Positions 6,998-60,751 of a stretch of 64,000 bases of DNA are shown piece by piece. The stretch comes from a phage. The position numbers and the translations under genes were made by a program. The notes under the pieces were generated by a model, which was not told the DNA's origin, did not search any database, and was given only the letters and a program-made list of their open reading frames with translations. The stretch is from assembly GCA_025830695.1 (NCBI GenBank), contig GCA_025830695.1_4111.1; one strand, written 5' to 3'. Within the stretch, counting starts at the first letter, position 1; each line of letters begins with the position of its first letter.

Positions 6998-7192
6998 ATG
7001 ACTGACAAAACATTTTATGATCGTATTATTGAAGACAAGGGAGTTTTTGATAAGGTAGTTTATGACCTAGAACTTATGATCAAAGACGCACCGAACCCCC
7101 GTGTGCGAACCCAAGCAGAATTTGCAAAAACTTATCTTGTTCAAGTTCAAGCAATCTGTGAAGCAATTAAAAAACACAATGATAGTGCTTGA
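6998..7192 (+). CDS. hypothetical protein
   Basis: 64-aa ORF. Confidence 0.4.
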   Translation: MTDKTFYDRIIEDKGVFDKVVYDLELMIKDAPNPRVRTQAEFAKTYLVQVQAICEAIKKHNDSA

Positions 7193-7217
7193 CAGAACTA
7201 ATGTTCTATCCTATAAT
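7189..7217 (+). promoter_or_regulatory. sigma-70-like promoter (TTGACA-17-TATAAT)
   Basis: perfect consensus hexamers with 17-nt spacer. Confidence 0.65.
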
Positions 7218-22106: not shown

Positions 22107-22921
22107 GAATTTTAAATATGCTTAAATCTCTTCACGAAACAACCAAATTACATCAGGATGAAAAGTATCGTCGCAGCCTTACTAAAGATTTAGCATGTCG
22201 TATGTATATGCGTAGATTTGAAATTTCAAGAATTGGTAAAGGCTGGGATGATGTAAATCGTGAAGACATTGATCCAGATGCAATTTTTAAAGCATACATG
22301 GCTAGAAAAGTTTTCATAAATGAAAAAACTTTTTATATTGATAGTGATAGAGAATTAGAAAATAAATTTACAAAAGGTTTATGGAAGATATGGTGTGTTG
22401 AAGTATTCGGTGAAGTATTACCTGAGCCACCTGTTCCAGAAACTTATAAAGATTTAAAAAGTATTTTTGATAATGAACATATACATTCAAATTTCTCATT
22501 ATATGATACTGTGTCAGAAGCTGTATTTTATGGTGAGTTACATGGTCATAACAAATACTTTGATAGTATGGTTAGTTTTGATTTGTTTTGTCACTTGCCT
22601 GGTGTATCAAGTTGGACATGTGACCAACACAGAGCAAGTAAGATTGATAAGCGAAAATTCTCGGCCCAAAGATTTATGCAAGTTGCTATGAGTATGTATA
22701 AACTTGATTATCTTGGTTGTCCAGAACCATATAAACATTTTTGGAAAGAAAGAGCACAAAAATGTTTAAACTATTGTATAATCCGTTTAATGGACACATA
22801 CATTCTTAAGTTTAGAAATGCAACTGTATACGACATGCCTGAACCACCAAAGAATGAAAAATATCCACCTGTCAAGACATTTGTATGGTACAAGGATAAA
22901 AGTAACAAAAGGATGCACTAA
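22103..22921 (+). CDS. hypothetical protein
   Basis: 272-aa ORF. Confidence 0.5.
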   Translation: MRILNMLKSLHETTKLHQDEKYRRSLTKDLACRMYMRRFEISRIGKGWDDVNREDIDPDAIFKAYMARKVFINEKTFYIDSDRELENKFTKGLWKIWCVEVFGEVLPEPPVPETYKDLKSIFDNEHIHSNFSLYDTVSEAVFYGELHGHNKYFDSMVSFDLFCHLPGVSSWTCDQHRASKIDKRKFSAQRFMQVAMSMYKLDYLGCPEPYKHFWKERAQKCLNYCIIRLMDTYILKFRNATVYDMPEPPKNEKYPPVKTFVWYKDKSNKRMH

Positions 22922-22937
22922 GGTGCGTCCTTTTTTC
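22911..22937 (+). terminator. rho-independent terminator
   Basis: GGATGCAC/GTGCGTCC hairpin + T6. Confidence 0.6.
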
Positions 22938-22947
22938 TTTTCAGGTG

Positions 22948-22976
22948 TTGACATGTGTAGTCGAAGTATGTACAAT
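22948..22976 (+). promoter_or_regulatory. sigma-70-like promoter (TTGACA-17-TACAAT)
   Basis: hexamers read directly. Confidence 0.6.
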
Positions 22977-23017: not shown

Positions 23018-24145
23018 ATGAAAGGTAAATATTTTTTCATTGAAAATGGCAAAGAAGTTGAGATTCAAGAATTTAACTATAATTATGTACTGAACTCTTT
23101 ATTGAAACAATATGACCGTTCATCAAACAAAAAATACATTTACAATGTAATTGTACGTCGCACCTATGACTCGCTGGGTAATCCGTTATTTGATGTAAAA
23201 ACTCTGTCATTAGATGAAATCTATTTTGATAATAAACGTCTGAAAGTTCTTGATTTAATGAAGGATAAAATTCATTTTAGTAATATTAGAATTGATCCTA
23301 ACATGCCAGTACCGCCATTAGAGCGTGAATATCGTGAATGGAAAGAAGGTCGTGCCAAACCACGTTTAGACTTGGTACAAACATCACCAGATGTACCTGC
23401 ACCTATTGTTCTTAAGAAAAAACCTATCAACCCAGACGATAGCAGAATTGATGACATTGAAAGATGGGTTGAATTCCCTAGTACTATTGAAAAGAATTCA
23501 GTAAAAGTACTAGACTGGTTTGTAAACTTACCAGTTTGTGCACAAGAAATTGGAACTAAGATTCAACAAATTTCAGAACGTCAATTGGATCTTAACTCAG
23601 CATTACAACAGCATAGTGATTATATTAGAATGCTTATGAATAACCTTACTGTTGCGTTGGAAACGTTGTTCCCATTGAAGCCGACCTTTACACAGAAATT
23701 GTTTGGTAAAACTGATATCAAAGTGCAACCATCAGATTTGCCAAAAGTGATGAAAGCACTAAATGAAGCAGTTAAGTATGACACTAATAAGTTTAGTGGT
23801 CTTAGTACGATGTTTTCAGAACTTAGAAACGAAGTTAATGAAATCAAAAATGAACTTGAATATGGTAAGTTGGGTTGTGAATACGCACTACGTTGTGTGG
23901 ATGATGCGTTTGAATATGAATTAACATTAGAACGTATTATGAAAATGGGAATCACCACCTCCATGACTGAAACGAGCATTATTGCAACAAGTAAGCAATA
24001 TCAAGTTGATATGAATCGTATGGTAGATATTCAAACTATTACTATTCCTTTGATTATCAATCGTTTACAATCACAGACAGGTAAAGCTGTGGATGAGAGT
24101 ACTGTAGAAATTATTCGTAATCTGGCATATGGTAACAAAGAGTAA
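23018..24145 (+). CDS. hypothetical protein
   Basis: 375-aa ORF. Confidence 0.5.
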   Translation: MKGKYFFIENGKEVEIQEFNYNYVLNSLLKQYDRSSNKKYIYNVIVRRTYDSLGNPLFDVKTLSLDEIYFDNKRLKVLDLMKDKIHFSNIRIDPNMPVPPLEREYREWKEGRAKPRLDLVQTSPDVPAPIVLKKKPINPDDSRIDDIERWVEFPSTIEKNSVKVLDWFVNLPVCAQEIGTKIQQISERQLDLNSALQQHSDYIRMLMNNLTVALETLFPLKPTFTQKLFGKTDIKVQPSDLPKVMKALNEAVKYDTNKFSGLSTMFSELRNEVNEIKNELEYGKLGCEYALRCVDDAFEYELTLERIMKMGITTSMTETSIIATSKQYQVDMNRMVDIQTITIPLIINRLQSQTGKAVDESTVEIIRNLAYGNKE

Positions 24146-24154
24146 AAAAAATAC

Positions 24155-24183
24155 TTGACTATCATACGTGCTGCCCGTATAAT
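24155..24183 (+). promoter_or_regulatory. sigma-70-like promoter (TTGACT-17-TATAAT)
   Basis: hexamers read directly. Confidence 0.6.
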
Positions 24184-24231: not shown

Positions 24232-25368
24232 ATGTCCGAGAAAGAAATCAATCCTAAAAAAGCATCCACCGCAGCTAAATCAGCAAAACGCACTACTAAA
24301 ACTGCGTCTAAAGGTCATACAATTGATGCAAGTGATATTTTTAACCAAACTACAAAATCACTACCAGTACTGAAAGATGTTAAGGGAAATACTATGTCTC
24401 TAACAGTTCAAAACATCAATACTGTTGGTACAACTGCTGGTGCTGCTGTTGGGCGTTTGGCTGATGAAATTATGTCTAAAGTTAATGTAACGGATGACAA
24501 TACCGAGTTTGGTAAATCAATCACCACAATTCTTACGTTGACTCGTGCAGTTGATATTGATAGTCTTCAAGAAGATAAATCAATTGTTGGTCGTATTAAG
24601 AAATTCTTTGTTAATGCTCAACAGAAAGTAGGTGATCAGTACAAAAACAGTAAAGAGCAAATTGACGAAATTATGAAAACTCTTCAAACTGGTATTAATC
24701 GCCAGCACGGAGAATGTGAATGGCTTGATAAAGCATATAATGAAAACAAAGAATATTTGTTTGAATTACGTGATACATTAGTTGGTTTAGAAGAAGTAAC
24801 TAAAACACAAGATGCATTATTATTAGAAATGCAAGCAGACAAAAATGTAGACTCTTTTGCTATTCAAGAGCAAAAGATGATTTGTGAAGCACTTTCTAAA
24901 CAAGAAGATAAGATTCGTCGTCTTATCATGATGTGCGAGCTAAGTGGTCCACGTTTGATGAGTATGAAAAAAGTAAACTTGAACACTGTTTCTAAGTTTG
25001 AAGATTTAAAATCTGTTGTTATTCCAGCATGGAAGTCTCAATTGGCTGAACAGTTAATTTCCGAGCGTCAACGTAAGGATAATGAACTAGGCAATCTAAT
25101 TGATAATGAGACAAACCGTCTTTTGGAAACTAACTCTAAAATGGTTGCAGCAAATATGTTGGACGCAGCAAAGGCAAACAACCGTGGTATTGTGGATATT
25201 AAAACCTTGCGTAATGTACATAAAACGATGATTGACAGTATTGAAGCAGTTATTGAAGAAGAGAAAAAAGGTAAATTGGAACGTGAACGTGCTAAACAGG
25301 AAATTGCCCAACTTTCCTATGAACTGGAAGACACTCTTCGTGAAATTGCCGAAAAAGCTAACAAGTAA
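24232..25368 (+). CDS. hypothetical coiled-coil protein (possibly TelA-like; unverified)
   Basis: 378 aa, helix/coiled-coil-rich, GAGGA RBS; family assignment rests on size and character only. Confidence 0.5.
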   Translation: MSEKEINPKKASTAAKSAKRTTKTASKGHTIDASDIFNQTTKSLPVLKDVKGNTMSLTVQNINTVGTTAGAAVGRLADEIMSKVNVTDDNTEFGKSITTILTLTRAVDIDSLQEDKSIVGRIKKFFVNAQQKVGDQYKNSKEQIDEIMKTLQTGINRQHGECEWLDKAYNENKEYLFELRDTLVGLEEVTKTQDALLLEMQADKNVDSFAIQEQKMICEALSKQEDKIRRLIMMCELSGPRLMSMKKVNLNTVSKFEDLKSVVIPAWKSQLAEQLISERQRKDNELGNLIDNETNRLLETNSKMVAANMLDAAKANNRGIVDIKTLRNVHKTMIDSIEAVIEEEKKGKLERERAKQEIAQLSYELEDTLREIAEKANK

Positions 25369-25371
25369 TAG

Positions 25372-25400
25372 TTGACATATGAGTGCGTTTTTAATATAAT
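25372..25400 (+). promoter_or_regulatory. sigma-70-like promoter (TTGACA-17-TATAAT)
   Basis: hexamers read directly; overlaps the terminator hairpin. Confidence 0.55.
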
Positions 25401-25424
25401 CTTATTGAAAACGCACTCTTTTTA
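25381..25424 (+). terminator. rho-independent terminator
   Basis: GAGTGCGTTT ... AAACGCACTC stem + TTTTT. Confidence 0.55.
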
Positions 25425-25447
25425 ATGTACAGATAAGGAACTAACTT

Positions 25448-26137
25448 ATGAAACGTCGTCATATTAGTGTTGATATTGAAGCTCTTGGAACACCTGAACT
25501 TTCCGGTTATGATATTATTATCCCAAATTACGCAGCAGTAGTAGTTCCAAGTAAACCTGAAAATGACATTCGTCAGTTCTTATATATTAAATTACCATAC
25601 CAGGATCAAGTTGCTGCTGGTTTAAAATCAGACGCAGGTGCAATGGATTTTTGGATGAATACATGTCAGAAAGAATACCCTAATGCATATTCTGAAGTTG
25701 CCAGTACTATGAAACTCAAAGCACCTGAACTGTATGGACCGAATGGTCAATCACGACGATTTTTTGCATACAGTAGTATTGTTGATTTCTGGAAAGAATT
25801 ACGTTACAATGATTATGGTGAAGAAGTTCCTCATTCAGTCTGGGGCAACGGATGTAACTTCGATTGTAGTATTTTACAAGCAAACCATTTAAAACTAATG
25901 AACGCTGGTGAGTTGTGGAAGTATGATGCACCTGAAAATGCACGCACATTGAAACGTTTATTGAATGAAGAAGCTCGTATTGAAATGGATGAAATCGTTT
26001 CGGTACAGTTGGATAAATTTATCAGATATGCAAATACGTGTGGGATTAATGGGTTGGAGTTACATCACCCACTGTTTGATGCAGCACGTGAAGCAATCCA
26101 GATTTCATTCTGTCTAAACAAGCTTAAAATGGATTAA
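25448..26137 (+). CDS. dexA: DnaQ-like 3'-5' exonuclease (DexA-like)
   Basis: DEDDh motifs: VDIEALG (Exo I), GNGCNFDCSIL (Exo II), HHPLFDA (Exo III); 229 aa. Confidence 0.65.
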   Translation: MKRRHISVDIEALGTPELSGYDIIIPNYAAVVVPSKPENDIRQFLYIKLPYQDQVAAGLKSDAGAMDFWMNTCQKEYPNAYSEVASTMKLKAPELYGPNGQSRRFFAYSSIVDFWKELRYNDYGEEVPHSVWGNGCNFDCSILQANHLKLMNAGELWKYDAPENARTLKRLLNEEARIEMDEIVSVQLDKFIRYANTCGINGLELHHPLFDAAREAIQISFCLNKLKMD

Positions 26138-26140
26138 TAC

Positions 26141-27235
26141 ATGAATTTCATTATTCTGTTAATACCTGCTCTTATCGTTGTATTCGTTATGAAATACATG
26201 TACGATAAGCATATCAGTACTAAAGAACTATTGATTCATATTGGTTGTTGTCTGGTTGGTGCGGCTCTTGTTCTTGGTATTTCATACGCAATCAACTATA
26301 GCCAGCTTTATGATGTTGAGATTCTGAATGGTCAAGTAACTTCAAAATACAGCCACAAAGAATATTGCACACAATCTAGTTCATGTAAGCACTATACATG
26401 GCATGAGAAGTGCCATACGCGATATGATAGTAAAGGTAAATCACATCGTGAGTGTGAATCATATAAGGTTTTTGATTACTCATATGAAGTTGATTGGTAT
26501 GTGAAAAGTACAGTAGGTGAGTTTGAGATTGAACGTGTGAACCGTCAAGGTACAATGACACCACCACGTTGGCAGCAAGTTATGATTGGTGACTATGCCG
26601 CCGCAGAGAGTTCATATATCAACTATCTATTTGCTGATAAGAACTCATTGTTTAGTCCTGAAGAACTACACAACATGTATGATGAAAAGTATCTTAGTAC
26701 TATTCCAGAATACCCAAGTGTAGTTGATTATTACAAAACACATCACGTAATTAACACTACAAATTACAACGTTGATGGTTACGATGAATACCTTCGTAAT
26801 GAGCTAAAAACGATGGGTGCACGAAAGCAGGTAAACATCCAAGTACTAGTTTATGATTACAAAGATGTGGATTTTGTTGATGCTACCCTTGCATCGTGGC
26901 GTGGTGGTAAGAAGAATGATGTTATTATGTTCTTTGGTATTGACAATGATGGTAACGTTGTCAAATTTTACAGTACATCATTTGCACAAGGAATGAAGAA
27001 TGAAGAGTTACATGCAAAGATGCGTATTGATGCATTAAATGAAAAATTAACTCTTGACTTACTAGTTAAAGAAGTACATAATATTGACACACAGTTTGAG
27101 AGACTCTCTAATAAAGAGTTTGAGTACTTGTCAGTAAAAATGGAACCTAGAAAAGATGTTCTTATCGGTGCTTCCATTGTTTTGTTGATTCTGTCTATTT
27201 TCATTGGCCTTTATATGAGGGATAACGATTTATGA
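26141..27235 (+). CDS. membrane protein with Cys/His-rich ectodomain
   Basis: hydrophobic helices at both termini; C/H cluster CTQSSSCKHYTWHEKCH. Confidence 0.5.
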   Translation: MNFIILLIPALIVVFVMKYMYDKHISTKELLIHIGCCLVGAALVLGISYAINYSQLYDVEILNGQVTSKYSHKEYCTQSSSCKHYTWHEKCHTRYDSKGKSHRECESYKVFDYSYEVDWYVKSTVGEFEIERVNRQGTMTPPRWQQVMIGDYAAAESSYINYLFADKNSLFSPEELHNMYDEKYLSTIPEYPSVVDYYKTHHVINTTNYNVDGYDEYLRNELKTMGARKQVNIQVLVYDYKDVDFVDATLASWRGGKKNDVIMFFGIDNDGNVVKFYSTSFAQGMKNEELHAKMRIDALNEKLTLDLLVKEVHNIDTQFERLSNKEFEYLSVKMEPRKDVLIGASIVLLILSIFIGLYMRDNDL

Positions 27236-27786
27236 ATGGTAAACTCCTTGCGTTAATTGGTATTTTGGTAGTTATTGTACTAATGGTGTTTGGTTCTATT
27301 AGTATGTATGTTGGTGCACATGATCGTGCAGTTGAGTTTGAAGGAAACATTAAAAAGTACTATGATGCATCTGAAAGTCAACTTAGCAATTATACTCTTA
27401 CTATTCAAGATAAGGTTCAAGTAGCAGATAAGTACAAAAATGCGTTGAAAGAAACGATTGAGTCATACTTTAAAGGGCGTGAAGGTGTTGACCAGAAGTT
27501 TGTAATGTCACAGATTCAACAACAGGTTCCAAATCTTGATCCTAAAATTTATCAGGAATTGATGGTGACAATTGAAGCAGGACGTACAAAGTTCAACAAT
27601 CTTCAGAAAATGAAAATTGACCAGTGTACTGATTATGCTAAGTTCCGCAAAGGCTTCTGGAATTCCAAAATTCTTGATTCGAATACGTTTCCAAGTGAAA
27701 ATATTGAACACCTTTGTACAGTAGTATCTGATACACGTACCAAGAAAGCAATGGATACTGGTATTCAAGAATCAATTAAACTATAA
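27232..27786 (+). CDS. membrane-anchored protein, possibly LemA-like
   Basis: N-terminal TM then helical domain, about 184 aa; weak resemblance only. Confidence 0.45.
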   Translation: MNGKLLALIGILVVIVLMVFGSISMYVGAHDRAVEFEGNIKKYYDASESQLSNYTLTIQDKVQVADKYKNALKETIESYFKGREGVDQKFVMSQIQQQVPNLDPKIYQELMVTIEAGRTKFNNLQKMKIDQCTDYAKFRKGFWNSKILDSNTFPSENIEHLCTVVSDTRTKKAMDTGIQESIKL

Positions 27787-27795
27787 TTAAATGTT

Positions 27796-27820
27796 GGGAG
27801 TACTTTGTACTCCCCTTTTC
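27796..27820 (+). terminator. rho-independent terminator
   Basis: GGGAGTAC-TTT-GTACTCCC + CTTTT. Confidence 0.65.
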
Positions 27821-28988: not shown

Positions 28989-29342
28989 ATGCTAATTTAT
29001 TTGAGTGTTCTTGTTATTTCATTACTGGTATCATTAGCAGTACTGAAAGCTGTTGCCATCGGTCGTAGTAAAATTGACAGTACTGAAACGAGTTCCGTTC
29101 TAGATTTGATTATGGATCATCCTAAAGTCTGTGGTATTATTGTATTGTTTGTTATTCTGATTAATACGTATATTGTCAGGGATCATTTATATAATATGTA
29201 TGATTGTAGTGTTAGATCTATATCACAAGGTGTTGAAACTGACTATAGCTGGTACTATGAGAAATGTAGATTTAAAAATCAGCATGGTATTTGGGTTGAT
29301 TTTGACAAACTACGTGGAACTCCTTCAGGAGAAGAAGAATAA
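28989..29342 (+). CDS. membrane-anchored hypothetical protein
   Basis: 117-aa ORF with N-terminal TM. Confidence 0.5.
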   Translation: MLIYLSVLVISLLVSLAVLKAVAIGRSKIDSTETSSVLDLIMDHPKVCGIIVLFVILINTYIVRDHLYNMYDCSVRSISQGVETDYSWYYEKCRFKNQHGIWVDFDKLRGTPSGEEE

Positions 29343-39456: not shown

Positions 39457-39485
39457 TTGACACATGAAAATGGAGTATATATAAT
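39457..39485 (+). promoter_or_regulatory. sigma-70-like promoter (TTGACA-17-TATAAT)
   Basis: hexamers read directly. Confidence 0.6.
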
Positions 39486-41663: not shown

Positions 41664-41952
41664 ACATGAAGTAATTCATTTTGATGATAAGATCTATATT
41701 CCAAATATTGATAGTACTGAAACATATTACCTAATCAATAAGATTATGGCTGAAACAAATACGTGTTGTCGTCAACAGCCAGGAAAATATGAGTTCAGTC
41801 AGACTATTGGTTATTACCGATATGATATGTTAGAATCATTTACAATTGATAAGTCTAAAGTTATTGACATTCTTGTACAGAATGGATATAATGAACAACG
41901 TGTAAATGATACAGATTTACCAGTTTCAAAAATTGTTCTTTCTAATAATTAA
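41656..41952 (+). CDS. hypothetical protein
   Basis: internal ATG of track ORF 41593..41952. Confidence 0.4.
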   Translation: MNKHEVIHFDDKIYIPNIDSTETYYLINKIMAETNTCCRQQPGKYEFSQTIGYYRYDMLESFTIDKSKVIDILVQNGYNEQRVNDTDLPVSKIVLSNN

Positions 41953-45864: not shown

Positions 45865-46047
45865 ATGACACACGAAGAATGGATGTCCAAACAGCATAAA
45901 GAACATGACTGCTTTGGGAATGGCATTCGTCAGGTACATTATGATATATTAAGAGATGAAAATCTTTTCAGGTCATATGTTTTGGATACCAGAAAACCCT
46001 GGTTTATATGCGAACTGGCATTTAGAAAGTCAAATAATCAAAACTAA
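45865..46047 (+). CDS. MTHEEW-family small protein (copy C)
   Basis: internal ATG of track ORF 45847..46047. Confidence 0.5.
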   Translation: MTHEEWMSKQHKEHDCFGNGIRQVHYDILRDENLFRSYVLDTRKPWFICELAFRKSNNQN

Positions 46048-46063
46048 ACAAGGAATACAAAAA

Positions 46064-46282
46064 ATGGAAACAACTTTATTTGAAGTTATTCAATCATTAA
46101 AACCTGAAGATGAGGTTCAAGTACTACTACATGGTTATCGTGTAAAAGGTACTGTGGTTTTAGTCAATGATACAACATTGGTTATTACAGAAACAAACCC
46201 ATATGATAGTAATCAACTTGCCAATATCCATATCGATATCACTGGAATTATTGGTGTCGGTGTATCTAAAACACTTGCATAA
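46064..46282 (+). CDS. hypothetical protein
   Basis: internal ATG of track ORF 45956..46282 with AAGGAAT RBS. Confidence 0.45.
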   Translation: METTLFEVIQSLKPEDEVQVLLHGYRVKGTVVLVNDTTLVITETNPYDSNQLANIHIDITGIIGVGVSKTLA

Positions 46283-46335
46283 ATCATTAATTCATTATAT
46301 AATGATTATCACTGGTTCTAGATGAGGATAATATT

Positions 46336-46608
46336 ATGCATTTTGAAAAATTCAACGTAAATCGTAACACACGCATTGAAGTTCTTTATGAAACTCAAGA
46401 CACCATTAGTATTCGTACAAGTAGTGGGGATGTATATCATGACTGTACGATTGGCTGGGAACAGGGAAGGACGCGTAGTGCAGTATTTGATAATTATCGC
46501 TTTTATCAAGGAGACACTACGATTTGGCCTGAATACGTAGAAGATATTGCGTTTGAAGATGAACATAAAGATGAATTTATCAAATTTAATCCTCAAACTG
46601 AATCATAA
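46336..46608 (+). CDS. hypothetical protein Confidence 0.45.
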   Translation: MHFEKFNVNRNTRIEVLYETQDTISIRTSSGDVYHDCTIGWEQGRTRSAVFDNYRFYQGDTTIWPEYVEDIAFEDEHKDEFIKFNPQTES

Positions 46609-46612
46609 ATAA

Positions 46613-46742
<130 letters not shown>

Positions 46743-46745
46743 AAT

Positions 46746-46846
<101 letters not shown>

Positions 46847-46848
46847 CA

Positions 46849-47009
<161 letters not shown>

Positions 47010-47013
<4 letters not shown>

Positions 47014-47170
47014 CACATGAAGAATGGATGAATGACATTAATTTTAGATATTCGGGTATCGGTAAATGGCTAAAGTATCATTGGGAATTCATTTCAGAGC
47101 CACATCTGTATGATAAACTTATCAACGATCCAGCATATGAAATGTACTTAATTGAACTACTGGTACGATT

Positions 47171-47174
<4 letters not shown>
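47010..47174 (+). CDS. MTHEEW-family small protein (copy E)
   Basis: near-identical to copy D over the first third; ATGA-coupled. Confidence 0.45.
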
Positions 47175-47336
<162 letters not shown>

Positions 47337-47344
47337 AAAAAAAG

Positions 47345-47758
<414 letters not shown>

Positions 47759-47815
47759 CTAAATAATTCAGTACTGAGGATATTAATATGTTTAAAGATG
47801 AACGTCCAGATTTGT

Positions 47816-47853
<38 letters not shown>

Positions 47854-47857
47854 GAAT

Positions 47858-48201
47858 TCCACAATCAGACGTATATGGTGTAAGTTACGTCGATGCAATC
47901 CAGAACAAGATCTCTGGTACTCTAGGAAGTGGTGAATGTTAACCTAGACGGGTTTGATAATTGGACGATAGGCAATTATTACTTGACTAGCAGGTTTAAA
48001 CTAGAGGTGACTATCCTTCACCAAACTGGAAAACCGGATGGACTTTTATTTAAAAGGGTAAGGCGTGGAAATATGTTTACAGAAGTTGCTTTTAGTAGCC
48101 TGTACGCCCCACGTCAAGGTAGCCGAAAGGCAAGTTAAGACGGGTGGTTATAAAGCTGAATTAACAGCGGCGTTTAAAAGCGTCACCATCCATTTTTTTT
48201 T
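47858..48201 (+). ncRNA. candidate structured non-coding RNA
   Basis: ORF-poor, GC-richer stretch between a promoter and a hairpin + T-run; long-range complementarity (GGTGAA...TTCACC), GAAA tetraloop CCGAAAGG. Confidence 0.35.
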
Positions 48202-48217
48202 AATTAAAGTTGGTGAT

Positions 48218-49027
<810 letters not shown>

Positions 49028-49051
49028 ACGAAATTACAATAGGAAATTAAA

Positions 49052-49237
49052 ATGCAACTTTTAATTCTTTCAATATTGTATATTATTATAATGGTTCCGA
49101 TATCAATACGTTTAATTACACTTGAACGATTTTTATCGAAACATGGAAATAGATCTATGATCTTAGTACCAATCGGGCTTATATTGTTTGGTATTTTTGC
49201 ATTTATAATGGGAATTAACGCTACATTCATTTCATAG
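49052..49237 (+). CDS. small membrane protein
   Basis: 61-aa two-helix hydrophobic ORF. Confidence 0.45.
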   Translation: MQLLILSILYIIIMVPISIRLITLERFLSKHGNRSMILVPIGLILFGIFAFIMGINATFIS

Positions 49238-58904: not shown

Positions 58905-59380
58905 TGTTAACAATAGTGTTGTTGGTAAGTCCATTTGTGTATTTTGTGCTGTATAATATTTTTAGTAATGCTAATCATTTTAAATATGCACAAACAATTG
59001 CAAAGCATGAAGGTTTTTGGAATTTTTTCCCAGCATTACTATGCTCATATCTATACCATGAACGCTATTTCATTTTTCCTGAATATAAAAATTATGGTTA
59101 TGATTCTAAAGTAAATGGTATAATTGAGTACTGTATAAGAAATTATCTTAATAATAATGATAACGTCCAAGTAAGAATAGGAAATGGTAATATATCAAGA
59201 ATAGTTTTCATACCTGATATACAAGATCCAATATACTTATATCCATATGATTATAGTATTAGTGTAGGTTGTTCGATACATGGTAGTAAATCTATGTACG
59301 ATTACTTTATCTTACCACCAACACAAATTAGATTAATAGAAAAATATTTGAGGGAAAAGTTTGACAACAAAGATTCTTAG
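58904..59380 (+). CDS. membrane-anchored hypothetical protein Confidence 0.5.
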   Translation: MLTIVLLVSPFVYFVLYNIFSNANHFKYAQTIAKHEGFWNFFPALLCSYLYHERYFIFPEYKNYGYDSKVNGIIEYCIRNYLNNNDNVQVRIGNGNISRIVFIPDIQDPIYLYPYDYSISVGCSIHGSKSMYDYFILPPTQIRLIEKYLREKFDNKDS

Positions 59381-59421
59381 TATTATAATTAACACACCAA
59401 GTAACCCAAGGGGGGTGGAAA

Positions 59422-60304: not shown

Positions 60305-60726
60305 GAGGCTATAATAAGATTTGTATTTTTGTATTTTTAGTTTGTGCATTCAATTCGTTTGGTTACTACTGTACAGAAAATAATATTTCATATGGTTTAA
60401 ATCCTTTGTGGTTTACAATTTCCAATGTAGCACAAATTGGTATTGCTCTTATGTCTGCACTTATGTTCTGTCCAATTGTCACTATGGATACTGATCATGA
60501 AAGGCTTGGATTTCTCCGTGATACTGGAGACGAACCTTACAGTAGATTGATTGTGTTGTATCCATTTATTGTTATTTTAGGTACTAACATCCAACTTGGG
60601 TCATTATCTAATAGTGTTACATCAGCAGCTATTGCTATATTTGCATTCACATTTTTTATGGTACACAAATCAGTACTTAATTGGTATATCACAAAAATGG
60701 CAGAAGAAGGTACTAAAAATACTTGA
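60301..60726 (+). CDS. multi-pass membrane protein Confidence 0.5.
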   Translation: MRGYNKICIFVFLVCAFNSFGYYCTENNISYGLNPLWFTISNVAQIGIALMSALMFCPIVTMDTDHERLGFLRDTGDEPYSRLIVLYPFIVILGTNIQLGSLSNSVTSAAIAIFAFTFFMVHKSVLNWYITKMAEEGTKNT

Positions 60727-60751
60727 CATAATTTAGTATGTTATATATAAT
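60723..60751 (+). promoter_or_regulatory. sigma-70-like promoter (TTGACA-17-TATAAT) Confidence 0.6.

What the first reader, a model, noticed from the sequence alone, without database searches (positions are those of the whole stretch)
24232..27786. Candidate membrane-stress module: coiled-coil protein plus two membrane proteins
A 378-aa helix-rich protein (size and character reminiscent of TelA-like proteins) is followed, after the DexA-like exonuclease, by a 364-aa membrane protein with a Cys/His-rich ectodomain and a 184-aa N-terminally anchored protein with a LemA-like layout. I could not confirm either family from sequence alone; if correct, this would be an envelope-directed accessory module.
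Basis: inference. Interest (0 to 1): 0.45.

Follow-up and report, generated by a model that had tools for sequence, protein, structure and literature searches.

The report
Phage TelA plus TPM–LemA membrane pair
This stretch of a giant E. coli phage encodes a TelA protein and a two-gene membrane cassette (a TPM-fold protein and a distant LemA relative) that copies a common bacterial gene pair of unknown function and recurs in about 480 large phages, so the finding is real and partly already annotated.

Summary
The window is an Asteriusvirus jumbo coliphage, 99.9% identical to vB_EcoM_E9.1 and 99.8% to PBECO4. All four ORFs exist exactly as described.

- **378-aa protein:** a bona fide TelA (Pfam PF05816, 129 bits, full length).
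- **184-aa protein:** has no direct Pfam LemA hit. Its family profile matches LemA strongly (hhalign 98.2%, E 4e-14; PDB 2ETD E 2e-7).

In 5 of 5 bacterial loci examined, LemA is directly followed by a TPM gene. The phage cassette is therefore a divergent copy of that pair in reversed order. It is adjacent in all eight phage contexts inspected and occurs in about 483–486 phage records, including ICP1, CBA120, Vi01, RAY and Aeh1.

TelA has its own promoter and terminator. It is linked to the pair only in Rak2-like jumbo phages.

Consensus σ70 promoters suggest early expression. The likely role is an early inner-membrane complex supporting envelope integrity; this is inferred, not shown.

TelA and "LEMA" labels already exist in GenBank. 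The TPM assignment and the conserved pairing appear unreported.

The parts
24155..24183 (+). sigma-70-type promoter-like site (TTGACT-17-TATAAT, 11/12) upstream of the TelA gene
   Evidence: It is one of 21 near-consensus sites in the window, all on the + strand, against 2.2 expected by chance.
24232..25368 (+). TelA-family protein gene (378 aa). The protein is soluble, and its basic N-terminal ~59 aa lie outside the Pfam match.
   Evidence: PF05816 E 2.2e-37, 129.3 bits, aa 60-370 against profile 14-331/332; phrog_5890 'tellurite resistance' E 4.9e-136; no TM segment; annotated 'TelA-like protein' in 121Q, G17, slurp01 and Sharanji.
25381..25418 (+). terminator-like hairpin (16-bp stem followed by a T run) after the TelA gene
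   Evidence: independently annotated as a terminator in the G17 record.
25372..25400 (+). perfect sigma-70 consensus promoter (TTGACA-17-TATAAT) for the exonuclease / TPM-like / LemA-like operon; it overlaps the terminator hairpin
25448..26137 (+). 3'-5' exonuclease gene (229 aa), first gene of the operon; linked to the membrane pair only in Rak2-like phages
   Evidence: PF16473 Rv2179c-like E 1.1e-8, 35.5 bits against 27; phrog_255 exonuclease E 2.6e-33.
26141..27235 (+). 364-aa inner-membrane protein gene. Architecture: TM hairpin, Cys-rich beta domain, TPM-fold domain, C-terminal TM.
26144..26302 (+). N-terminal transmembrane helical hairpin of the 364-aa protein (aa 2-20 and 27-54)
   Evidence: hydropathy; helices in the AF2 model.
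26309..26620 (+). Cys-rich beta-strand ectodomain (aa 57-160; Cys76, Cys82, Cys91, Cys105) with no significant structural match
   Evidence: strands E57-75, 85-95, 101-111, 115-123, 126-130 and 152-160; Cys conservation 64-98%; no Foldseek hit at E<=1e-3.
26747..27094 (+). TPM-fold alpha/beta domain (about aa 203-318) with the invariant motif W253-x-G-G-K-K-N259-D260
27152..27223 (+). C-terminal transmembrane helix of the 364-aa protein (aa 338-361)
27232..27786 (+). 184-aa divergent LemA-family protein gene: N-terminal TM anchor (aa 5-23) followed by a helical domain. Its start overlaps the stop of the previous gene by 4 bp.
   Evidence: hhalign against bacterial LemA 98.2%, E 4.2e-14; PDB 2ETD E 2e-7 with the family profile; AF2 model all-helical, pLDDT 75; 803 cluster representatives; 483 phage records; annotated 'LEMA protein' in 121Q.
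27796..27814 (+). terminator-like hairpin closing the operon
   Evidence: a terminator is annotated at the same place in G17.

Best explanation
The region holds two separate early transcription units of an Asteriusvirus jumbo phage. Unit 1 encodes a soluble TelA-family protein. Unit 2 encodes a 3'-5' exonuclease followed by a translationally coupled pair. The first member is an inner-membrane protein whose ectodomain consists of a Cys-rich beta domain and a TPM-fold domain. The second is a membrane-anchored, highly divergent LemA-family protein. The pair is the phage counterpart of the widespread bacterial LemA-TPM gene pair, with the gene order reversed and an extra domain, and it is inherited as a unit across about 480 large virulent phages. 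Proposed mechanism (inferred): host RNA polymerase transcribes both units early from consensus sigma-70 promoters. The two membrane proteins insert into the cytoplasmic membrane with the TPM/beta domain and the LemA helical bundle on the periplasmic side, and they associate there. Like cellular TPM proteins, they would then act as a chaperone-like or stabilising factor for membrane protein complexes and membrane integrity during the long infection cycle. Shown here: gene structure, family and fold assignments, conserved adjacency, the bacterial parallel, and promoter and terminator motifs. Inferred: topology, physical interaction, timing of expression, and the physiological role.
Confidence: 0.6

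Rival explanations
1. One three-component TelA / TPM-like / LemA-like envelope module: the three proteins work together as a single complex or pathway.
For: The order TelA, exonuclease, 364-aa gene, 184-aa gene is retained across Rak2-like jumbo phages at only 46-52% amino-acid identity (K64-1, GAP32, SE_PL, fHe-Yen9-03, pEa_SNUABM_19; coordinates). All three families have envelope or membrane associations.
Against: TelA has its own promoter and a terminator hairpin, and an unrelated exonuclease gene intervenes. TelA occurs in 258 phage records, including Phapecoctavirus-type coliphages (~145-155 kb) and Lactobacillus and Caulobacter phages, while the pair occurs in 483-486 others, including Ackermannviridae, ICP1, Aeh1 and Erwinia jumbo phages. 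The rows listed show overlap only in the Rak2-like group. No TelA lies near the pair in seven distant contexts. No TelA was seen next to LemA-TPM in five bacterial loci.
Confidence: 0.12
2. The 184-aa protein is a virion structural protein, as PHROG and RefSeq label it, and the pair has a role in particle assembly.
For: phrog_1383 is labelled 'virion structural protein'. The same label appears on CBA120 orf254, RAY gp46, Vi01 and LIMEstone1 in RefSeq, and 'putative structural protein' appears in some original records (moki, AR2819, Desertfox).
Against: It has an N-terminal transmembrane anchor and LemA homology. It lies behind a consensus early-type promoter within a replication and nucleotide-metabolism region. 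In phAPEC6, whose virion MS identified 62 proteins, the portion of the table that was read lists gp149c and gp150c and runs from gp078c straight to gp149c, so gp143c-gp148c are absent from it. No primary MS evidence for the label was found; in the RAY MS table, gp45/gp46 did not appear in the excerpts read. Membrane proteins are common contaminants of phage preparations (general knowledge).
Confidence: 0.08
3. Superinfection exclusion or inter-phage competition: the early inner-membrane pair blocks DNA entry or the periplasmic steps of secondary phages, like T4 Imm and Sp.
For: The genes have early-type promoters. They encode inner-membrane proteins with predicted periplasmic domains. The genes are phage-borne accessory genes.
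Against: Exclusion genes are typically lineage-specific and fast-evolving (general knowledge). This pair is instead conserved as a unit across very distant phage groups and hosts (Vibrio, Acinetobacter, Sinorhizobium, Aeromonas, enterobacteria), and it has a chromosomal bacterial counterpart in non-phage contexts. It matches no PADLOC defence model.
Confidence: 0.12
4. Periplasmic enzyme: the TPM-fold domain is an active phosphatase or nucleotidase acting on a periplasmic substrate, and the LemA-like protein is only an anchor or regulator.
For: Some TPM proteins (AtTLP18.3, BA41) are reported to have phosphatase or ATPase/ADPase activity, as cited in PMC11237479. The motif G-K-K-N-D is invariant and the Cys/His-rich domain is conserved.
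Against: The enzymatic role of TPM domains is contested in the same source. There is no significant sequence match to catalytic TPM members. The GKKND motif replaces the canonical N-G-V-L motif rather than conserving it.
Confidence: 0.12
5. Lysis apparatus: the 184-aa protein is an i-spanin-like or antiholin-like protein, and the 364-aa protein is a holin or lysis regulator.
For: The predicted type II membrane topology with a helical periplasmic domain of about 160 aa resembles i-spanins. The adjacent gene encodes a membrane protein.
Confidence: 0.04

Closest known systems
Bacterial LemA-TPM gene pair, e.g. the Thermotoga LemA matching the sequence of the PDB 2ETD chain and the 238-aa PF04536 protein encoded immediately downstream
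   Same: The two protein families are encoded by adjacent, often overlapping genes (5/5 bacterial loci). LemA is about 185-195 aa with one N-terminal TM segment and a helical domain, the same size and layout as the phage protein. The TPM partner is bracketed by an N-terminal hydrophobic segment and a C-terminal TM segment. Both LemA groups show the same charge bias, predicting an N-in topology.
   Different: The gene order is reversed: TPM-like first, then LemA-like. The phage TPM-like protein has an N-terminal two-helix TM hairpin and an extra ~100-aa Cys-rich beta domain, and it lacks the Gly-rich C-terminal tail. Sequence similarity is below Pfam thresholds for both window proteins. LemA signature motifs are not conserved.
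Escherichia phage 121Q gp66-gp69 and the orthologues in PBECO4, G17, phAPEC6 and slurp01 (Asteriusvirus)
   Same: These are the same genes at 99.2-99.9% nucleotide identity. gp66 is already annotated 'TelA-like protein' and gp69 'LEMA protein; bromodomain-like fold'.
   Different: gp68, the 364-aa protein, is annotated only as hypothetical in every record seen. gp67 is called 'metallopeptidase' in 121Q, although it matches an exonuclease family.
TelA / KlaB toxic-anion-resistance proteins (PF05816; RK2 KlaB, Listeria TelA, B. subtilis YceH/YaaN)
   Same: Full-length profile match. The protein is soluble with no TM segment and is about 380 aa.
   Different: It is encoded by a lytic phage behind its own early-type promoter. 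It has a basic ~59-aa N-terminal extension outside the profile. No telB/klaC, xpaC, terC or terD gene is annotated nearby, whereas a phage TelA in Phapecoctavirus lies about 2 kb from a TerC-like gene. The bacterial partners named here are from general knowledge.
B. subtilis YdjH-type TPM proteins in pspA (ydjFGHL) operons
   Same: A membrane-associated TPM-domain protein is genomically coupled to a helical membrane-stress protein. A chaperone-like role in assembling membrane complexes has been proposed (PMC11237479).
   Different: The partner there is PspA (ESCRT-III-like), not LemA, and no PspA homologue was seen in the phage region.

Membership tests
TelA (Pfam PF05816) | Profile match above the curated gathering score, covering most of the model | tested here: met
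   E 2.2e-37, 129.3 bits against a cut-off of 30; aa 60-370 against profile 14-331/332; phrog_5890 E 4.9e-136.
TelA (Pfam PF05816) | Soluble protein of about 350-400 aa without transmembrane segments | tested here: met
   378 aa with no 19-aa window of Kyte-Doolittle hydropathy >=1.6.
TelA (Pfam PF05816) | Genomic linkage to telB/klaC, xpaC or ter genes (typical, not obligatory) | tested here: not met
   None is annotated within the 50 kb around the gene in E9.1 or in the 15.6-kb stretch retrieved around the gene in 121Q.
TelA (Pfam PF05816) | Confers resistance to tellurite or envelope-active compounds | not testable with these tools
   Needs MIC assays with the cloned gene.
LemA (Pfam PF04011) | Direct profile match of the protein above the gathering score | tested here: not met
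   No PF04011 hit at E<=1 for the window protein. A LemA HMM built here gives only 13.9 bits.
LemA (Pfam PF04011) | Homology detectable at the family-profile level | tested here: met
   hhalign of A2 (131 phage sequences) against A4 (41 LemA sequences): 98.2%, E 4.2e-14, 155 columns. The A2 profile against PDB gives 2ETD LemA at E 2e-7 and the next hit at E 0.18. 29/131 members hit PF04011, best E 2.9e-6.
LemA (Pfam PF04011) | Architecture: single N-terminal TM helix and a ~150-aa helical bundle, total about 180-200 aa | tested here: met
   TM segment at aa 5-23. The AF2 model has long helices H3-62, 66-80, 88-98 and 104-143. Family members are 175-200 aa.
LemA (Pfam PF04011) | Conserved LemA sequence signatures (QLQRRxDLIPNLV; ENRIxxARxDYNxxVxxYN) | tested here: not met
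   These positions are invariant in 41 LemA sequences. In the aligned phage profile the first motif is absent, and only scattered positions of the second (R, Y, FP-like end) are retained.
LemA (Pfam PF04011) | Three-dimensional similarity to the solved LemA structure (2ETD) | tested here: inconclusive
LemA (Pfam PF04011) | Adjacent gene encodes a TPM-domain membrane protein | tested here: met
   Bacteria: 5/5 loci. Window: the upstream overlapping gene has a TPM fold.
TPM domain (Pfam PF04536) | Sequence-profile match | tested here: not met
   No hit for the window protein. 7/58 homologues hit weakly, best E 0.013. hhalign against five LemA-linked TPM proteins gives 1.4% and E 0.037.
TPM domain (Pfam PF04536) | TPM alpha/beta fold | tested here: met
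TPM domain (Pfam PF04536) | Extracytoplasmic domain held between membrane segments | tested here: inconclusive
   TM segments flank the domain. The charge bias favours a cytoplasmic loop and tail but is weak, +0.8 and +1.3. Conserved Cys residues are consistent with a periplasmic location.
TPM domain (Pfam PF04536) | Phosphatase/nucleotidase activity or metal binding | not testable with these tools
   Needs purified protein.
Rv2179c-like / DEDD 3'-5' exonuclease (PF16473) | Profile match above the gathering score | tested here: met
   E 1.1e-8, 35.5 bits against 27; phrog_255 exonuclease E 2.6e-33.

The most novel reading that the evidence does not exclude
The TPM-fold / LemA-like pair is an ancient, vertically maintained inner-membrane complex of large virulent phages of Gram-negative bacteria. 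It occurs in about 480 genomes, including the model phages ICP1, Vi01/CBA120, RAY and Aeh1. It derives from the ubiquitous but functionally uncharacterised bacterial LemA-TPM pair and carries a phage-specific Cys-rich beta domain. It would be installed early to chaperone or protect membrane complexes and the proton-motive force of the infected cell. If so, phage genetics would give the first tractable handle on what LemA-TPM systems do.
Probability: 0.3. Interest if true: 0.6.

Novelty: new member of a known kind. Interest (0 to 1): 0.38.

Why it matters
LemA and TPM proteins are very common in bacteria, and the five bacterial loci inspected here all encode them as an adjacent pair. Their function is essentially unknown. 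This analysis shows that a divergent copy of the pair is among the more widely conserved accessory cassettes of large lytic phages, present in about 1% of all phage records searched, including genetically tractable models such as ICP1 and CBA120. That gives a concrete two-gene target for knock-out and interaction studies. It also replaces an uninformative 'hypothetical protein' label and a probably misleading 'virion structural protein' label. For this window itself the result is modest: the TelA and LemA labels were already in GenBank, and the three genes do not form one demonstrable module.

Tried and rejected
- **Direct library scans.** Pfam, NCBIfam and PADLOC scans of the 364-aa and 184-aa proteins gave no meaningful family.
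- **PDB search with the close-relative profile A1.** It did not find LemA. Only the broad 131-sequence profile did.
- **afdb50 fold library.** It was unavailable.
- **Sequence-profile tests of the TPM assignment.** They failed. hhalign gave 8% against one Thermotoga TPM protein and 1.4% against five LemA-linked TPM proteins. The TPM call is therefore flagged as based on fold and gene context only.
- **Foldseek against PDB.** It gave no hit at E<=1e-3 and nothing for the Cys-rich beta domain.
- **Upstream 375-aa protein as a TelA paralogue.** BLASTP showed no similarity (best E 1.3) and it has no Pfam hit. Rejected.
- **Independent TelA linkage in Lak megaphages.** TelA and the 364-aa homologue are both absent within 20 kb on either side of the Lak-B8 LemA-like gene, under genetic codes 11 and 15.
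- **Literature.** Targeted queries on phage LemA, TelA or TPM function, on the LemA-TPM pairing, and on ICP1, RAY and phAPEC6 homologues found no experimental data. My remembered PMC id for the Anantharaman et al. Ter-system paper was not held.
- **Spanin, holin and virion-protein readings.** Considered and rated unlikely; see the rival explanations.


Full report
**What the window is.** Region 24232-27786 is 99.9% identical over its full length to Escherichia phage vB_EcoM_E9.1 and 99.2-99.9% identical to 22 further records, including PBECO4, G17, slurp01, phAPEC6 and 121Q. These are Asteriusvirus jumbo myoviruses of about 350 kb. The window is AT-rich (about 33% GC) and almost entirely coded on the + strand. 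It lies in a replication and nucleotide-metabolism region containing RNR, DHFR, RNase H, Dda helicase, topoisomerase II and the clamp loader.

**Check of the observation.**
- The 378-aa and 229-aa proteins have no hydrophobic segment.
- The 364-aa protein has three (aa 3-21, 30-48, 340-358).
- The 184-aa protein has one (aa 5-23).
- The ectodomain of the 364-aa protein contains Cys76, Cys82, Cys91 and Cys105, and the protein has 12 His in all. Cys76, Cys82 and Cys91 are conserved in 88-98% of 58 homologues.

All four proteins have strong PHROG matches and distant homologues in many phages, so they are real genes.

**TelA.** The 378-aa protein matches Pfam TelA (PF05816) at E 2.2e-37 and 129 bits against a cut-off of 30, over positions 14-331 of the 332-position model. 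It also matches phrog_5890 'tellurite resistance'. No solved structure is related by sequence. The first ~59 residues are a Lys-rich extension outside the profile. Several GenBank records already call it 'TelA-like protein'.

**The 184-aa protein is a remote LemA relative.**
- Alone it gives no LemA hit in Pfam at E<=1.
- A word-indexed search found only close relatives, and a profile of those did not reach LemA in the PDB.
- An exhaustive HMMER search found 803 cluster representatives at E<=0.001; nearly all of the 150 best listed are 175-200 aa.
- A 131-sequence alignment of these gave LemA from Thermotoga (PDB 2ETD) as the top PDB hit at E 2e-7, with the next hit at E 0.18.
- 29 of the 131 members hit PF04011, the most frequent family by far.
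- I collected authentic LemA proteins with the 2ETD sequence and aligned 41 of them. The profile-profile comparison gave 98.2% probability and E 4.2e-14 over 155 columns, running from the TM helix to the end of the LemA domain.
- The LemA signature RR-DLIPNLV is not kept.

The protein is therefore a divergent, phage-specific branch of the LemA family rather than a typical member. 121Q gp69 is already annotated 'LEMA protein; bromodomain-like fold'.

**The 364-aa protein carries a TPM fold.** It had no annotation in any record seen, and no Pfam, NCBIfam or PADLOC match. Ninety-seven homologues reach down to 23% identity.

An AF2 model built on 58 of them is confident (pLDDT 92.5, pTM 0.82). It shows:
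- two N-terminal TM helices;
- a beta-rich domain (aa 57-160);
- an alpha/beta domain (about aa 203-318);
- a short helix;
- a C-terminal TM helix.

At the sequence level the support is weak. TPM is the most frequent Pfam family among homologues, but only 7 of 58 hit it (best E 0.013). hhalign against LemA-linked bacterial TPM proteins is not significant (8% and 1.4%). It does align the invariant phage motif W-x-G-G-K-K-N-D with the canonical TPM W-G-I-G-x-x-x-x-N-N-G-V-L. The TPM assignment thus rests on a high-confidence predicted fold and on gene context.

**Gene context settles what the unit is.** In eight contexts outside Asteriusvirus, the 364-aa homologue is immediately followed by a 182-192-aa gene. 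The contexts are:
- five metagenomic phage contigs, one of them 499 kb and one T4-like with gp32 and gp33;
- Vibrio phage ICP1;
- Kuttervirus CBA120;
- the nucleus-forming Erwinia phage RAY.

Six of these partners were tested. All match an HMM built only from close relatives of the window protein, at E 1e-24 to 1e-47, and intergenic gaps are -1 to 52 bp (-4 bp in the window itself).

In the phage database the two proteins occur in 486 and 483 records. Their genus counts are almost identical (Salmonella 166/166, Escherichia 63/63, Klebsiella 55/54, Erwinia 29/29). Wherever both are listed, their coordinates are adjacent.

Neither TelA nor the exonuclease is next to the pair in any context outside the Rak2-like phages. 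The one exception to the pairing is Lak megaphage, where the LemA-like gene stands alone.

**The bacterial parallel.** Five authentic LemA genes were examined, from Thermotoga (the protein matching the 2ETD chain), Niallia, Thermincola, Caloramator and Sporosarcina. Each is followed at a gap of 0-12 bp by a 238-266-aa protein with a strong PF04536 TPM domain, at E 1e-41 to 1e-47 for the three scanned directly. These TPM partners have an N-terminal hydrophobic segment, the TPM domain, a TM segment and a Gly-rich tail.

The phage cassette is therefore the same LemA-TPM pair with three differences: the gene order is reversed, a TM hairpin and a Cys-rich beta domain are added, and the Gly-rich tail is missing. 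I found no paper describing this pairing in phages, or the TPM nature of the phage protein.

**Transcription units.** Near-consensus sigma-70 promoters (TTGACA-N17-TATAAT, at most one mismatch) occur 21 times in the window, all on the + strand. Chance expectation is 2.2, with a maximum of 7 in 100 shuffles.
- One (11/12) lies 49 bp upstream of the TelA start codon.
- A perfect one lies 48 bp upstream of the exonuclease start codon.
- Another precedes the upstream 375-aa gene.

Terminator-like hairpins follow TelA (25381-25418) and the 184-aa gene (27796-27814). Both are also annotated in G17.

So TelA is monocistronic, and the exonuclease, TPM-like and LemA-like genes form an operon. Both are probably read early by host RNA polymerase; this is an inference from the motifs.

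**Relation of TelA to the pair.** TelA is found in 258 phage records: Rak2-like jumbo phages, Phapecoctavirus-type coliphages (~145-155 kb), and Lactobacillus, Listeria, Caulobacter and Prevotella phages. In the rows listed, this set overlaps the pair's distribution only in the Rak2-like group. There the order TelA, exonuclease, TPM-like, LemA-like is conserved at 46-52% protein identity. This is compatible with a loose functional association in that lineage. It does not support one obligatory module. In a Phapecoctavirus, TelA lies near a TerC-like membrane protein instead.

**Likely mechanism.**
- Charge bias predicts that the N-terminus of both phage and bacterial LemA proteins is cytoplasmic and the helical domain external. 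Net charge is +2.3 and -0.6 for the phage family and +2.8 and -1.6 for bacterial LemA.
- The conserved Cys residues, the TPM precedent and a weak charge bias place the ectodomain of the 364-aa protein in the periplasm too.
- Translational coupling and strict co-inheritance suggest that the two proteins form a complex.
- TPM proteins are described as auxiliary or assembly factors of membrane complexes (PSII repair, respiratory complexes). They are also described as conserved partners of PspA, with a proposed chaperone-like role in membrane-stress systems; a phosphatase role is a competing hypothesis (PMC11237479).

I therefore favour an early-installed inner-membrane complex that stabilises or services membrane complexes and envelope integrity of the infected cell. 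TelA would be an independent, cytoplasm-side contributor.

The identity claims are well supported. I give the complex-formation claim about 0.6 and the specific physiological role about 0.3.

**Rivals.** The 'virion structural protein' label comes from PHROG and RefSeq. It conflicts with the TM anchor, the LemA homology and the early-type promoter. It also conflicts with the phAPEC6 virion proteome: the portion of the MS table that was read runs from gp078c straight to gp149c, so it lists the neighbouring gp149c and gp150c but none of gp143c-gp148c. Superinfection exclusion, a periplasmic enzyme and a lysis function are possible but less consistent with the data; details are in the rivals section.

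**Verdict.** The family guesses are right, directly for TelA and only at profile-profile level for LemA. The 'module' is really a TelA gene and a separate, widely conserved TPM-LemA cassette. The TelA and LemA labels are already in public annotation. The TPM-fold assignment, the bacterial parallel and the breadth of the phage cassette appear new, but they extend known families. Interest is moderate.

Noticed in passing
window, whole (e.g. 7189-7217, 39457-39485, 41864-41892, 59361-59389, 60723-60751): There are 21 matches to TTGACA-N17-TATAAT with at most one mismatch, all on the + strand, against 2.2 expected by chance (maximum 7 in 100 shuffles). This jumbo-phage region appears densely populated with host-type (early) promoters.
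   Followed up: partly
window 25372-25418: The perfect sigma-70 promoter of the exonuclease operon (25372-25400) overlaps the 16-bp-stem terminator hairpin that follows TelA (25381-25418). The -10 element lies inside the hairpin loop and descending arm. This could couple termination of one unit to initiation of the next.
   Followed up: no
window 23018-24145: A 375-aa protein is encoded just upstream of TelA, with its own promoter-like site (22948-22976) and a preceding hairpin (22907-22934). It matches phrog_13312 (unknown function), has no Pfam hit, and shows no BLASTP similarity to TelA (best E 1.3).
   Followed up: partly
window 25448-26137 (= 121Q gp67): The gene is annotated 'metallopeptidase' in 121Q, UB and phAPEC6, 'putative peptidase' in PBECO4, and 'DNA polymerase III subunit epsilon' in Turkey3. 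Here it matches only an Rv2179c-like 3'-5' exoribonuclease domain and the PHROG exonuclease family. The peptidase label looks like an annotation error that has propagated.
   Followed up: partly
window 27084-27112 (also 27054-27082): Promoter-like sites (TTGACA-17-TCTAAT and TTGACT-17-CATAAT) lie inside the 3' end of the 364-aa gene, about 120-150 bp upstream of the LemA-like start. They might allow separate expression of the LemA-like protein.
   Followed up: no
alignment A3 (homologues of window 26141-27235), C-termini: Many distant homologues end in Arg-rich tails with an aromatic last residue (…HRRW, …SRRW, …YRRF, …KRRY); 19 of 58 have an aromatic C-terminal residue. This is reminiscent of the …ASRGW / …GRSW ends of bacterial LemA-linked TPM proteins. 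The window protein ends in …MRDNDL instead.
   Followed up: partly
L018 2501-5573 (Thermincola contig): The bacterial LemA-TPM pair is followed directly by an NfeD-family membrane protease-like gene and a FloA (flotillin-like) gene. This context again points to membrane organisation.
   Followed up: no
L021 19941-20480 (Prevotella megaphage Lak-B8): A LemA-like gene (179 aa; HMM E 5e-42) stands alone downstream of a ClpX-like gene. No homologue of the 364-aa protein or of TelA was found within 20 kb on either side under genetic code 11 or 15.
   Followed up: yes
L015 209-4508 (Escherichia phage ukendt, Phapecoctavirus): In this phage group the TelA homologue lies about 2.2 kb from a gene annotated as a TerC-like integral membrane protein. 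This is a different membrane partner from the one in the window.
   Followed up: no
window 28989-29342: A 117-aa ORF has two strongly hydrophobic segments (aa 1-19 and about 40-63). It is a further small membrane protein just downstream of the cassette, of unknown function.
   Followed up: no
window about 45900-49200 (from the collinear E9.1 annotation, L016): A cluster of tRNA genes (Gly, Ser, Ser, Met, Asn) is interspersed with small ORFs. It was not verified directly in the window.
   Followed up: no
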